Shown here: in pieces, positions 54,282 through 55,580 of the stretch | How positions within the stretch are numbered: the stretch's first letter is position 1 | Layout of the letters: each line of letters begins with the position of its first letter | Source of the DNA: Candidatus Kapaibacterium sp. | Lineage (GTDB): Bacteria > Bacteroidota > Ignavibacteria > Kapaibacteriales > UBA7675 | DNA: 64,000 nucleotides | Assembly (NCBI GenBank): GCA_028284775.1 | Contig: JANQRB010000074.1 | Span: 3,256-67,255, forward strand | Direction: 5' to 3' | Translations under genes and position numbers: made by a program | Notes under the pieces: model-generated | Told to the model about the DNA's origin: nothing | The model's database searches: none | Seen by the model: the letters and a program-made list of their open reading frames with translations, nothing else

Positions 54282-55580
54282 ATGCACAACAGACGATTCA
54301 GAGCGGTTTCAAGCGTCTACGGCAAAATCGAGCACATTCTATTTGCCTACCCGGGCAATGATCGGGATCGCGTGAATTTGCGACGCTTATACGAGGAAGC
54401 GTATTCCAAGCTGCCGAAGAGTGTACAGTTTTTTGTTTTTGCCCTTTTCGGCAGTGAAAATGACTTTGAATACGGACTCGATAAGTTTATCGAGTCGACG
54501 CGAGACTATTTTGACCGTATTATTCCCGGCTCGATGCCCAGCGAGCGGCTGCAAACCGTTATCCTGGGCTCCCATGAGGAGCTGCGCGGGCGTACCCATG
54601 AATGGGTGCAGGATCTTAACTATGTTTTGGAAAGCAGTAACGGCGTAGCGGCTTTTTTGCAGCAGGTTCATTTTCGGCACGAAAAGAACTTCGGTTACAG
54701 CAACTCGCAGATAGCTGAAGTCATTGCGTCCGAGACCGATTTTCTCCTCAAGCCCTTTCCTTATCTCATCGTGGGCGGCAACATTCTAGTCGGCAACACC
54801 TACATGATCGTCGCGCGCGATTTGTTAAACCGCAATGCGCAGGAATTTCAACGAACTGAGGAAGAAATCACGGAAGCCTTCCGATGCGGTTTTGGAATCG
54901 AAGATGTGATCTGGCTGGATGTCGGCGATGTTGATGGACAAAACAACCTGGGACATCTTGACTTTATCATGAATCTGGGCGGTAAGATCTATGAAGATTA
55001 TACATGGAAAGAGCTGGTAATGCTCGCTGAAATCACGGAGGATAGTTTAAGCGGCGGCGCAGCGATCAATGATCCGGACATTCAAAAATATATTCGCACC
55101 CTTGACCGAATAGCCTTTTATCTTGAGAGCTACAATCATGACGGTCTTCGCTTTAAGGTCGAGCGGGTTCCCCTGATCGTTCATAACAGGCCCGGCAGAG
55201 CCAATCCATACATCTTCCGTTCCTACAACAACTGCCTGGTGGAAGTTTACGATCGCTTCAAAAACGCCTACCTGCCGCGCTATTACCAGGCGGATGGCGC
55301 CGGAGGCAATCGCTTTGATGAGCTCGAATCATCGATACAGCGACTCTACAGCCGTTATGGCTTCACCATCCATTTTCTCGAAGGCAATTTCGATGCCCTC
55401 AGCGACAATCGAGGCTCCTTCCGCTGCATCTCCAAGGTGCTGCGGCGCAGCAGTGCCGACAGCCGCAACTGGAACATCGATTTCAGCCACAATGTGCTGG
55501 AATACAATGGCAACGACCGCGGAATGGCACAGCAGTATGTGGACATTATAAAGGAAGTGTTGGAGCACAAGTTACGCTAA
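54282..55580 (+). CDS. Agmatine deiminase / Porphyromonas-type peptidylarginine deiminase-like enzyme (guanidino-group-modifying enzyme fold).
   Basis: N-terminus HILFAYPGN...LRRLYEEAYSKLPKSVQFFVF parallels the AguA MPAEWEPH..WLAWP...fa.va.aIa.fEpV.vlV region. Central GHLDF is a His-x-Asp candidate. C-terminal DNRGSFRCIS matches the GG..HC.T-type nucleophile-Cys motif of the superfamily. Confidence 0.5.
   Translation: MHNRRFRAVSSVYGKIEHILFAYPGNDRDRVNLRRLYEEAYSKLPKSVQFFVFALFGSENDFEYGLDKFIESTRDYFDRIIPGSMPSERLQTVILGSHEELRGRTHEWVQDLNYVLESSNGVAAFLQQVHFRHEKNFGYSNSQIAEVIASETDFLLKPFPYLIVGGNILVGNTYMIVARDLLNRNAQEFQRTEEEITEAFRCGFGIEDVIWLDVGDVDGQNNLGHLDFIMNLGGKIYEDYTWKELVMLAEITEDSLSGGAAINDPDIQKYIRTLDRIAFYLESYNHDGLRFKVERVPLIVHNRPGRANPYIFRSYNNCLVEVYDRFKNAYLPRYYQADGAGGNRFDELESSIQRLYSRYGFTIHFLEGNFDALSDNRGSFRCISKVLRRSSADSRNWNIDFSHNVLEYNGNDRGMAQQYVDIIKEVLEHKLR

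What the first reader, a model, noticed from the sequence alone, without database searches (positions are those of the whole stretch)
54282..55580. Deiminase/amidinotransferase-fold enzyme in a non-polyamine context
The N-terminal and C-terminal motifs parallel the agmatine deiminase / Porphyromonas PAD family, including a putative nucleophile Cys in GSFRCIS. The neighbourhood lacks N-carbamoylputrescine amidase or other polyamine genes. The substrate may therefore be a different guanidino compound or a protein/peptide arginine.
Basis: partly seen in the sequence, partly recalled or inferred. Interest (0 to 1): 0.55.

Follow-up and report, generated by a model that had tools for sequence, protein, structure and literature searches.

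The report
Deiminase-fold enzyme in candidate immune module
The gene encodes an apparently active arginine/agmatine-deiminase-fold enzyme that is not the polyamine enzyme AguA; it belongs to an undescribed module (a TPR protein, small arginine-loop proteins and the deiminase) that in related bacteria sits beside changing sets of immune-type effector genes, so it may be a new bacterial defence component.

Summary
The ORF at 54282-55580 (+, 432 aa) is real and the GSFRCIS motif is present (C382). An AlphaFold model (pLDDT 82.8) matches agmatine deiminases and Porphyromonas PAD (Foldseek E about 1e-16 to 1e-17, 12-15% identity). The mechanistic residues are all present: W108, D111, H225, D227, N316/N317 and C382.

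It is not AguA. It scores 14.5 bits against a TIGR03380 cut-off of 381.8. It also falls below the Pfam PAD_porph gathering score (22.7 against 25). No polyamine gene was found among the window ORFs scanned.

It belongs to a distinct clade of about 1,500 representative clusters. In 24 of 29 non-redundant metagenome/MAG loci, mostly Bacteroidota and Ignavibacteria, the gene lies next to a TPR protein of about 510 aa. In most loci it also lies next to a small protein of about 150 aa with an invariant Arg in a G-x-x-D-x-R loop.

The flanking genes change from locus to locus: PNP-like nucleosidase, asparaginase-like enzyme, SMODS, TIR, SLOG, and caspase, S8, trypsin or papain peptidases. Some relatives are fused to TIR, Mrr or EAD11.

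Best reading: a core enzyme of an undescribed conflict or immune module, probably deiminating a protein arginine. The substrate and any defence function are untested. This is a new variant of a known kind, of moderately high interest.

The parts
51413..52969 (-). 'Partner': all-helical TPR-superhelix protein of about 515 aa, transcribed divergently from the deiminase operon
   Evidence: ORF, with only weak TPR Pfam hits. The AF2 model has pLDDT 91.2 and is entirely helical. Foldseek returns only generic TPR and RRNPP-type (Rap/NprR) matches at E about 2e-3. A homologue lies next to the deiminase-family gene in 24 of 29 non-redundant metagenome/MAG loci.
53336..53724 (+). sA: small protein with a YFCIGN motif, a distant paralogue of sB; here split by a frameshift at an A10 run (53623-53632)
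   Evidence: The 107-aa ORF 53336-53659 matches the first ~97 residues of the 130-aa sA of L001 and L010. Their last 22 residues match 53656-53721 in another frame at 50% identity. hhalign of sA against sB gives 76% probability, E = 2e-5.
53755..54252 (+). sB: 165-aa protein of unknown fold with the loop motif IGTDDWRY (invariant D104 and R106, G101 nearly invariant)
   Evidence: Homologues lie upstream or downstream of the deiminase gene in most loci. No Pfam or PDB family matches. The C-terminal extensions of fused deiminases carry a D-x-D-[YF]-R-E motif and weakly resemble sB (hhalign E = 4e-4, 35% probability).
54282..55580 (+). The finding: pentein/GME-fold hydrolase of the AgDI/PPAD branch, 432 aa. 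Catalytic set W108, D111, H225, D227, N316/N317, C382
55666..57189 (+). Type I asparaginase-like enzyme (TGGTIG and HGTDT motifs intact) with a C-terminal extension of about 140 aa and unknown fold
   Evidence: Pfam Asparaginase E = 1.4e-56 and Asparaginase_C E = 4.8e-21. NCBIfam type I asparaginase scores 251.8 bits, just below the 260.5 cut-off. The gene is syntenic in L001 and L010.
57239..58453 (+). 404-aa protein of unknown function. Its C-terminal Cys-rich region may be TRAPP/V4R-like; this rests only on a weak Pfam hit to the L001 orthologue
   Evidence: No Pfam hit for the window protein. The L001 orthologue (31% identity) carries a weak precomputed PF04051 TRAPP hit. Alignment.
58499..59569 (+). 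PNP/UDP-phosphorylase-superfamily protein related to defence-system effectors
   Evidence: Pfam PNP_UDP_1 E = 1.6e-9. PADLOC PDC-M60C E = 1.2e-37 and CBASS 'PN-superfamily' effector E = 1.6e-13. Syntenic in L001 and L010.

Best explanation
Shown:
- The ORF encodes a cytoplasmic, apparently catalytically competent cysteine hydrolase of the guanidino-group-modifying (pentein) superfamily. Its nearest structural relatives are agmatine deiminases and Porphyromonas PAD.
- It belongs to a separate, uncharacterised clade with its own invariant residues: WxQD instead of WxRD, YNNCLVE, and C-x-T-K-V-L-R-R.
- It is not AguA and is not in a polyamine pathway.
- The gene travels with a TPR protein of about 510 aa and with small proteins carrying an invariant Arg-containing loop.
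- This triad is flanked, differently in different genomes, by effector or signalling genes typical of bacterial conflict systems. Some relatives are fused to TIR, Mrr or EAD11 domains.

Inferred:
- The triad is the core of an undescribed conflict (probably anti-phage) module.
- The TPR protein acts as sensor, scaffold or regulator.
- The deiminase converts a peptidyl-arginine to citrulline. The target would be either the invariant Arg of the small sB protein, acting as a switch or pseudosubstrate, or a target protein.
- That modification controls or complements the variable effectors. In this window those are a PNP-like nucleosidase and an asparaginase-like amidohydrolase.
For: Fold: the AF2 model has pLDDT 82.8, and its top 30 PDB matches are AgDI/PPAD-type chains at E = 3.5e-17 to 3.5e-14.

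Catalytic residues were placed by alignment:
- W-V-Q-D aligns with W-I-R-D of C. jejuni AguA.
- G-H-L-D aligns with H-H-I-D.
- GS[LF][HR]C aligns with GSLHC of H. pylori AgD.
- These correspond to AgDI W93/D96/H218/D220/N306/C357 and PPAD D130/H236/D238/N297/C351, as listed in PMC4487231.

Conservation over 157 family members: D111 in 153, H225 in 152, D227 in 155, N317 in 153, C382 in 152.

Not AguA. No polyamine genes.

Module: the partner is adjacent in 24 of 29 non-redundant metagenome/MAG loci. sB-type ORFs are adjacent in most loci.

Conflict-type neighbours:
- PNP-like protein matching PADLOC PDC-M60C at 1e-37.
- SMODS and NARF.
- ThsB_TIR, TIR+SLOG and S8 peptidase.
- EAD11-Trypsin_2.
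- Caspase next to a type II CBASS.
- Papain-like peptidase.
- Endonuclease on a Paenibacillus plasmid.

Fusions: pentein+TIR in P0048; EAD11+pentein in P0075 and Mrr+pentein in P0154. EADs are described as adaptors that couple effector or signalling enzymes to the cores of conflict systems (PMC7159879).
Against: - No experiment exists: neither the enzymatic activity nor any defence phenotype has been tested.
- The deiminase has no PADLOC match, and no literature describes such a system.
- The partner family also occurs without the deiminase, including a second copy in this window at 33426-35063. It could therefore be merely a lineage-typical transcription regulator.
- Several loci (L002, L003, L005, L009, L011) show no recognisable effector next to the triad.
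- Guilt by association was not tested against a genome-wide background.
- The query's subclade departs from the family consensus at several positions near the motifs: V164 for Glu, Asn-Asn-Leu-Gly for Gln-Pro-[LF]-Phe, and Leu-Asn for Pro-Phe. Three relatives replace the catalytic His by Asp.
- sA is frameshifted in this window, so the local copy may be decaying.
Confidence: 0.5

Rival explanations
1. Metabolite-depletion effector. The enzyme deiminates free L-arginine (or agmatine). Together with the asparaginase-like enzyme and the PNP-like nucleosidase of the same operon, it starves an infected cell of arginine, asparagine/glutamine and adenine nucleotides.
For: Three small-molecule hydrolase types lie in one operon in the window, L001 and L010. 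The closest structural relatives include small-molecule deiminases. The PNP-like protein matches defence effectors. An invariant K385/R389 pair next to the nucleophile could bind a substrate carboxylate; that role is an inference.
Against: The asparaginase and PNP genes accompany the deiminase in only 3 of about 31 loci. Elsewhere the neighbours are peptidases, TIR or SMODS. This reading does not explain the near-constant small Arg-loop protein or its apparent fusion to the enzyme.
Confidence: 0.2
2. Ordinary catabolic or detoxification operon for an unknown guanidino compound, for example a guanidino-nucleoside. The TPR protein would be its transcription regulator, with the steps being deiminase, then amidase, then nucleoside phosphorylase.
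For: The genes are co-directional and tightly spaced, with a divergently transcribed regulator-like gene. The partner resembles peptide- or ligand-binding TPR regulators of the RRNPP type, though only weakly. The partner family occurs in other contexts.
Against: No transporter or other pathway enzyme is present. Downstream gene content is not conserved. The fusions to TIR, Mrr and EAD11 and the neighbours SMODS, TIR, SLOG and caspase are not metabolic. The partner has no recognisable DNA-binding domain.
Confidence: 0.1
3. Amidinotransferase rather than hydrolase. The enzyme would move an amidino group to make a modified small molecule or signal.
For: The superfamily contains Cys-His-Asp amidinotransferases. 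The only viral structural matches are amidinotransferases at E = 2.5e-8 and 6.5e-8. HsvA amidinotransferase appears as a marginal PDB sequence hit at E = 0.97.
Against: Hydrolases (AgDI, PPAD, PAD, DDAH) fill the top 38 PDB matches and no amidinotransferase appears among them. The motif pattern W-x-x-D, H-x-D, Y-x-N and GSLHC is that of the AgDI/PPAD branch.
Confidence: 0.07
4. Housekeeping agmatine deiminase (AguA) whose polyamine partner genes lie elsewhere in the genome.
For: NCBI labels some relatives 'agmatine deiminase family protein'. The catalytic residues are shared.
Against: TIGR03380 scores 14.5 bits against a cut-off of 381.8, and PRK13551 scores 12.7 against 483. Identity to AgDI structures is 12-15%. 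The family is rare: 19 word-index hits among 5.8 billion proteins. The family has Gln where AguA has Arg in its WxRD motif. The synteny is conserved but non-polyamine.
Confidence: 0.02
5. Catalytically dead binding module, that is, a pseudoenzyme that only clamps an arginine of sB or of a target.
For: Three clade members have Asp in place of the catalytic His while keeping sB. The query lacks the family's usual Glu in the EGGN motif.
Against: The query keeps every residue listed as mechanistically relevant. At least 152 of 157 members keep each of Cys, His and both Asp.
Confidence: 0.06

Closest known systems
Agmatine deiminases (AguA/AgDI; PDB 2JER, 3HVM/2CMU, 6B10, 1VKP, 6NIB, 1XKN)
   Same: Five-bladed alpha/beta propeller fold (Foldseek E about 1e-15 to 1e-17, target-normalised TM-scores 0.66-0.76). 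Collinear motifs W-x-x-D, (E)GG, H-x-D, Y-x-N and GSLHC, with the Cys nucleophile.
   Different: Only 12-15% identity, and far below the AguA model cut-offs. Gln replaces the Arg of WxRD. The family has extra invariant residues E321, K385 and R389, and the query subclade has a C-terminal tail of about 40 aa. There is no polyamine gene context. Instead the gene is linked to a TPR protein, small Arg-loop proteins and immune-type genes.
Porphyromonas gingivalis peptidylarginine deiminase (PPAD; 4YT9, 5AK7, 6I0X; Pfam PF04371)
   Same: Same branch of the superfamily (Foldseek E about 1e-16). It is the best Pfam match. The catalytic positions C351/H236/N297/D238/D130 all have counterparts. PPAD shows that this branch can act on peptidyl-arginine.
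   Different: PPAD is a secreted T9SS cargo with an Ig-like domain, and it acts on C-terminal arginines. The window protein has no signal peptide and no Por_Secre_tail or Ig domain. It scores below the PF04371 gathering threshold.
EAD-coupled, effector-diversifying conflict systems (Kaur, Burroughs, Iyer and Aravind, eLife 2020; PMC7159879), and CBASS/Thoeris/Detocs-type systems that use TIR, SMODS, SLOG or PNP-like proteins
   Same: An invariant core with swappable effector genes. The same domain vocabulary sits next to or is fused to the family: EAD11, TIR, SMODS, SLOG, PNP-like, and caspase, trypsin and S8 peptidases. The family is preponderant in filamentous or gliding Bacteroidota such as Saprospiraceae and Aureispira.
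   Different: The module has no NTPase core (MoxR-vWA, STAND or GTPase) and no cyclase-sensor pair in this window. The constant enzyme is a deiminase-fold hydrolase, which the main text of that paper does not mention. PADLOC has no model for it.

Membership tests
Guanidino-group-modifying (pentein) superfamily, citrullinating AgDI/PPAD branch | Five-fold alpha/beta propeller fold | tested here: met
   AF2 model with pLDDT 82.8 and pTM 0.83. The top 30 Foldseek PDB hits are AgDI/PPAD-type chains at E = 3.5e-17 to 3.5e-14, followed by PAD1/PAD4 at about 1e-10 and DDAH at about 1e-7.
Guanidino-group-modifying (pentein) superfamily, citrullinating AgDI/PPAD branch | Cys nucleophile, His, Asn, and two guanidinium-binding Asp (PPAD C351/H236/N297/D130/D238) | tested here: met
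   C382, H225, N316/N317, D111 and D227 were placed by HMMER alignments to 6B10/6B2W and 2CMU/3HVM. Residue roles come from PMC4487231. Each is conserved in at least 148 of 157 members. The Asn was placed from motif order (SYNN against Y-x-N), not from a printed alignment.
Pfam PF04371 PAD_porph | Score at or above the gathering threshold (25 bits) | tested here: not met
   22.7 bits, E = 6.6e-5, covering only residues 141-231.
AguA, agmatine deiminase equivalog (TIGR03380 / PRK13551) | Score at or above the curated cut-off | tested here: not met
   14.5 bits against 381.8, and 12.7 bits against 483.
AguA, agmatine deiminase equivalog (TIGR03380 / PRK13551) | Genomic link to N-carbamoylputrescine amidase, putrescine carbamoyltransferase, carbamate kinase or arginine decarboxylase | tested here: not met
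   None was found among the window ORFs scanned or in the related loci.
AguA, agmatine deiminase equivalog (TIGR03380 / PRK13551) | Agmatine turnover | not testable with these tools
   Requires an enzyme assay.
PPAD-type secreted peptidylarginine deiminase | Signal peptide, Ig-like domain and T9SS C-terminal sorting domain | tested here: not met
   No Por_Secre_tail or Ig Pfam hit. The N-terminus MHNRRFRAVSSVYGK has no hydrophobic signal segment.
Vertebrate-type PAD (PF03068) | Match to the PAD catalytic domain model | tested here: not met
   E = 0.16, 11.3 bits against a cut-off of 25. Foldseek to PAD1/PAD4 gives only E about 1e-10.
Catalogued anti-phage defence systems (PADLOC-DB v2.0.0) | A component matches a system model | tested here: inconclusive
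   The deiminase, partner, sA, sB, asparaginase-like and 404-aa proteins have no significant hit. Only the PNP-like neighbour matches: PDC-M60C at 1.2e-37 and the CBASS PN effector at 1.6e-13.
EAD-coupled NTP-dependent conflict systems (PMC7159879) | NTPase core (MoxR-vWA, STAND or GTPase) plus paired EADs | tested here: not met
   No NTPase lies in the module. EAD11 occurs only in relatives: the P0075 fusion and the L035 neighbour. It was not detected in the window proteins or the partner family.
Conserved partner + sB + deiminase module (defined here) | Adjacent ~510-aa TPR partner and a small protein with a G-x-x-D-x-R loop | tested here: met
   Window genes 51413-52969 (-), 53336-53724 and 53755-54252. 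The same arrangement occurs in 24 of 29 non-redundant metagenome/MAG loci for the partner.

The most novel reading that the evidence does not exclude
A previously undescribed bacterial immune system, mainly of Bacteroidota and Ignavibacteria. Its invariant core would be a TPR sensor, a small protein presenting an invariant arginine loop, and a peptidyl-arginine deiminase. Citrullination of that arginine, or of an invader or host target, would be the switch that arms or restrains interchangeable effectors: Arg/Lys-directed peptidases, TIR, a PNP-like nucleosidase, or a SMODS cyclase. This would make protein citrullination a signalling or effector modification in prokaryotic immunity.
Probability: 0.3. 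Interest if true: 0.85.

Novelty: new variant of a known kind. Interest (0 to 1): 0.62.

Why it matters
Deiminase-fold enzymes in bacteria are known from polyamine and arginine catabolism and from one secreted virulence factor (PPAD). I found no report of one as a conserved core of an intracellular conflict system, in PADLOC v2 or in the literature searches. If the module is an immune system, it would add arginine deimination to the small list of protein or metabolite chemistries used in prokaryotic defence. It would also give a defined, testable substrate candidate: the invariant Arg of the small partner protein. Finally, it would assign a function to about 1,500 clusters of proteins now labelled 'hypothetical' or, misleadingly, 'agmatine deiminase family'.

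Tried and rejected
1. AguA orthology: rejected.
2. Polyamine genes in the window: none found.
3. Phage origin: no tblastn hit in 50,697 phage records and none in IMG/VR. The only viral structural matches are amidinotransferases.
4. Partner as an enzyme or NTPase: rejected. It is an all-helical TPR superhelix with only generic TPR/RRNPP fold matches at E about 2e-3.
5. EAD11 hidden in the partner, sA, sB, or the PNP-, asparaginase- or 404-aa proteins: not detected.
6. N-terminal extensions of fused deiminases as fused sA or sB: no support (hhalign probability 16% or less). The C-terminal extension shows only weak similarity to sB (35%, E = 4e-4) plus a shared D-x-[YF]-R motif.
7. sB against Pfam and PDB: nothing credible.
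8. The first genome-contig scan with the 19-sequence alignment failed for lack of a conserved stretch. It was repeated with 10 sequences.
9. Literature searches for a pentein- or deiminase-containing conflict or defence system returned nothing relevant.
10. I could not inspect active-site geometry or pocket openness, because model coordinates are not exposed by the tools.
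Full report
**1. The observation**

The ORF 54282-55580 (+) is present, starts with ATG and encodes 432 aa. The motif GSFRCIS is at residues 378-384, with the Cys at 382. It is a real gene: full-length homologues reach E = 4e-158.

Sequence similarity to known families is remote:
- Pfam PAD_porph scores 22.7 bits (E = 6.6e-5). This is below the gathering score of 25 and covers only residues 141-231.
- NCBIfam agmatine deiminase models score 14.5 and 12.7 bits, against cut-offs of 381.8 and 483.
- PDB sequence searches give E about 0.003-0.1.

**2. Fold and catalytic apparatus**

An AlphaFold2 model built on 19 homologues has mean pLDDT 82.8 and pTM 0.83. In Foldseek against the PDB:
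- The first 30 matches are all AgDI/PPAD-type chains: 1XKN, 2CMU/3HVM, 6NIB, 1VKP/3H7C, 6B10, 2EWO, 2JER and 1ZBR, plus Porphyromonas PAD. They have E = 3.5e-17 to 3.5e-14, target-normalised TM-scores of 0.56-0.76 and 12-15% identity.
- Human PAD1/PAD4 follow at about 1e-10.
- DDAH follows at about 1e-7.

HMMER alignments place the motifs:
- W108-V-Q110-D111 aligns with W-I-R-D of C. jejuni AguA.
- L-I-V164-G-G-N aligns with L-E-G-G-S.
- G-H225-L-D227 aligns with H-H-I-D.
- GS[LF][HR]C382 aligns with GSLHC of the H. pylori enzyme.

By the equivalences tabulated for PPAD, AgDI and PAD4 in PMC4487231, these are the guanidinium-binding Asp pair, the His, and the Cys nucleophile. That table lists C351/H236/N297/D238/D130 for PPAD and C357/H218/N306/D220/D96/W93 for AgDI. 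The Asn of the proposed Cys-His-Asn triad corresponds by motif order to N316/N317 in SYNNCLVE.

Across 157 family members the conservation is:

| Residue | Members conserving it (of 157) |
|---|---|
| D111 | 153 |
| H225 | 152 |
| D227 | 155 |
| N316 | 148 |
| N317 | 153 |
| C382 | 152 |

The clade also has its own near-invariant residues: Q110 (where AguA has Arg), E321, P332, K385 and R389.

The query's subclade (P0001-P0007) departs from the family consensus at several motif-adjacent positions, for example V164 in place of the usual Glu. Three of its members carry Asp in place of the His. The query itself keeps the full set.

I conclude it is very probably an active hydrolase of the citrullinating branch. 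It is not AguA and not a secreted PPAD: it has no signal peptide, Ig domain or T9SS sorting domain.

**3. Size and spread of the family**

The word-indexed search found only 19 clusters among 5.8 billion proteins. A profile search of 1.84 billion representatives found 1,547 at E ≤ 1e-3 and 400 at E ≤ 1e-30.

Species-level genomes carrying relatives are mostly Saprospiraceae, Aureispira, other Bacteroidota and Ignavibacteria. There are single Gemmatimonadota, Proteobacteria and SAR324 MAGs, and one MAG labelled Hyphomicrobiales. Two cultured-organism records carry relatives on megaplasmids: Vibrio maritimus and Paenibacillus polymyxa M1.

No relative was found in phage records or IMG/VR.

The window itself looks like an FCB-group chromosome. 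It has a T9SS sorting domain and TonB receptors with a CarboxypepD_reg domain.

**4. The conserved module**

In every locus recovered for the closer homologues, the gene is preceded by one or two small ORFs and by a divergently transcribed gene of about 500-530 aa. BLASTP and HMM searches confirm that these neighbours are homologous across loci.

Counting non-redundant metagenome/MAG loci, the ~510-aa 'partner' is adjacent in 24 of 29. Three of the five exceptions have the deiminase gene within 1 kb of a contig end. The two plasmid loci lack the partner.

The partner (window 51413-52969, -) is an all-helical TPR superhelix (AF2 pLDDT 91.2). It has only generic TPR and Rap/NprR-type fold matches at E about 2e-3. 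It has no recognisable DNA-binding, NTPase or EAD domain.

The small protein sB (window 53755-54252) has no known family. It carries a loop motif, IGTDDWRY in the window. In a 17-sequence alignment D104 and R106 are invariant and G101 is nearly invariant. More divergent examples keep the Arg, for example GTIHIRD in L034.

sB lies upstream of the enzyme in some lineages and downstream in others. sA (window 53336-53724) is a distant paralogue of sB (hhalign 76%, E = 2e-5).

Deiminases with a C-terminal extension of about 130-150 aa (P0016, P0073, P0092, P0095, P0109) carry a D-x-D-[YF]-R-E motif there. That extension is weakly similar to sB (hhalign 35%, E = 4e-4). This suggests, but does not prove, a fusion of the enzyme with its small partner.

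**5. Variable neighbours and fusions**

Beyond the triad the gene content changes from locus to locus:

| Locus or protein | Neighbour or fused domain |
|---|---|
| Window, L001, L010 | Type I asparaginase-like enzyme with a ~140-aa C-terminal extension; a 391-404-aa protein (weak TRAPP/V4R-type hit in L001 only); a PNP_UDP_1 protein matching PADLOC PDC-M60C (1.2e-37) and the CBASS 'PN-superfamily' effector (1.6e-13) |
| L007 | Two tandem copies of the module, each followed by a SMODS-like nucleotidyltransferase, plus a NARF protein and a large helicase |
| L024, L026, L027 | ThsB-type TIR protein and a TIR+SLOG protein; L024 and L026 also have an S8 peptidase |
| L014, L021, L034 | S8 peptidases; L034 also has a weak SMODS hit and a Cas6b gene |
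| L035 | EAD11-Trypsin_2 |
| L013, L015, L036 | Caspase-family peptidases; in L036 next to a complete type II CBASS |
| L037 | Papain-family peptidase |
| Paenibacillus plasmid | DNA/RNA non-specific endonuclease |
| P0048 | Deiminase + TIR_2 fusion (2e-14) |
| P0075 | EAD11 + deiminase fusion (26.4 bits against a cut-off of 26) |
| P0154 | Mrr_cat + deiminase fusion |

EADs were defined as adaptors that couple effector or signalling enzymes to the cores of conflict systems through homotypic interaction (PMC7159879). The main text of that paper does not mention a deiminase. PADLOC v2 has no model for the enzyme. Literature searches found no description of such a system.

**6. Interpretation**

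Shown:
- An apparently active AgDI/PPAD-branch enzyme of a distinct clade.
- No polyamine context.
- A conserved partner/sB/deiminase module.
- Recurrent juxtaposition and fusion with domains typical of bacterial immune or conflict systems.

Inferred:
- The module is a conflict system.
- The TPR protein senses or scaffolds.
- The enzyme deiminates a protein arginine.

The invariant, loop-exposed Arg of sB is the most concrete candidate substrate or pseudosubstrate, given sB's constant linkage and possible fusion to the enzyme. A further speculation follows from the neighbours. Many of the variable neighbours are peptidases of families that often cleave after Arg or Lys (trypsin-like, caspase/metacaspase-like, kexin-like S8). 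Converting an Arg to citrulline could gate such cleavage. None of this is tested.

**7. Caveats**

- The partner family also occurs without a deiminase. There is a second copy in this window at 33426-35063, divergent from a small unrelated ORF. It also occurs in other Bacteroidota contexts. It may therefore be a general regulator family rather than a dedicated sensor.
- Several loci show no recognisable effector.
- No background-corrected enrichment test was done.
- The window's sA is interrupted by a frameshift at an A10 run. This could be an assembly error or decay.

**8. Verdict**

Its cautious interpretation is partly supported: the fold, the triad and the non-polyamine setting hold, while the substrate remains unknown.

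The gene is the enzymatic constant of an undescribed module with the hallmarks of an effector-diversifying conflict system.

I rate it a new variant of a known kind, with interest 0.62. The most novel reading not excluded is citrullination as a switch in a bacterial immune system. I give it a probability of about 0.3; it would be of high interest if true.

Noticed in passing
window 53336-53724 (A10 run at 53623-53632): The small gene sA is split by a frameshift at a 10-A homopolymer. The first ~97 residues and the last 22 residues of the 130-aa L001/L010 orthologues match in two different frames. It could be an assembly error, phase variation or gene decay.
   Followed up: yes
window 33426-35063 (-) and 35303-35718 (+): A second paralogue of the TPR 'partner' (HMM E = 9e-128) is transcribed divergently from a ~138-aa ORF of unknown family that does not match the sB profile. 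No deiminase lies nearby. The partner family therefore pairs with more than one kind of cargo.
   Followed up: partly
window 4345-6264, 24109-25737, 40561-42186 (all +): Three paralogous-looking regulators of about 540-640 aa, each with TPR repeats followed by a C-terminal LuxR/GerE helix-turn-helix. That is an unusual density of TPR-type regulators in one 64-kb stretch.
   Followed up: no
window 55666-57189 (+), residues ~370-507: The type I asparaginase-like protein carries a C-terminal extension of about 140 aa. The extension has no family match and is conserved in the L001 and L010 orthologues. The protein scores just below the NCBIfam type I asparaginase cut-off (251.8 against 260.5), so it may not be an ordinary asparaginase.
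   Followed up: partly
L003 10001-11278, L005 10001-11443 (proteins P0005, P0006, P0007): Three members of the query's subclade have Asp instead of the catalytic His (GDLD, VDLD, IDLD). They keep the Cys, both Asp residues and the adjacent sA/sB/partner genes. They may be pseudoenzymes or use an altered mechanism.
   Followed up: partly
L007 3560-13439; L003 and L011 (both Ignavibacteria bacterium UBA7675): The module is duplicated. A Bacteroidia MAG has two tandem copies, each with its own SMODS-like gene. Ignavibacteria UBA7675 has two unlinked paralogous copies on different contigs.
   Followed up: partly
window 48001-52000: G+C falls to 0.38-0.44, against about 0.50-0.55 elsewhere. The low-GC stretch covers the AraC, alpha/beta-hydrolase and SDR genes and the start of the partner gene. 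This may indicate horizontally acquired DNA bordering the module.
   Followed up: no
L032 (Vibrio maritimus plasmid NZ_CP090440.1), 7750-11120: The Vibrio family member is a solitary gene flanked by unannotated transposase-like ORFs (identified by eye only). It lies about 1.8 kb from an S-type pyocin/immunity pair and has no partner or sB gene.
   Followed up: partly
BFVD matches A0A410T7C9, A0A6J5LX73: The only viral proteins with a related fold are annotated as amidinotransferases, from Campylobacter phage CP20 and an uncultured caudovirus. Phages therefore do carry pentein-fold enzymes, but of another branch.
   Followed up: no
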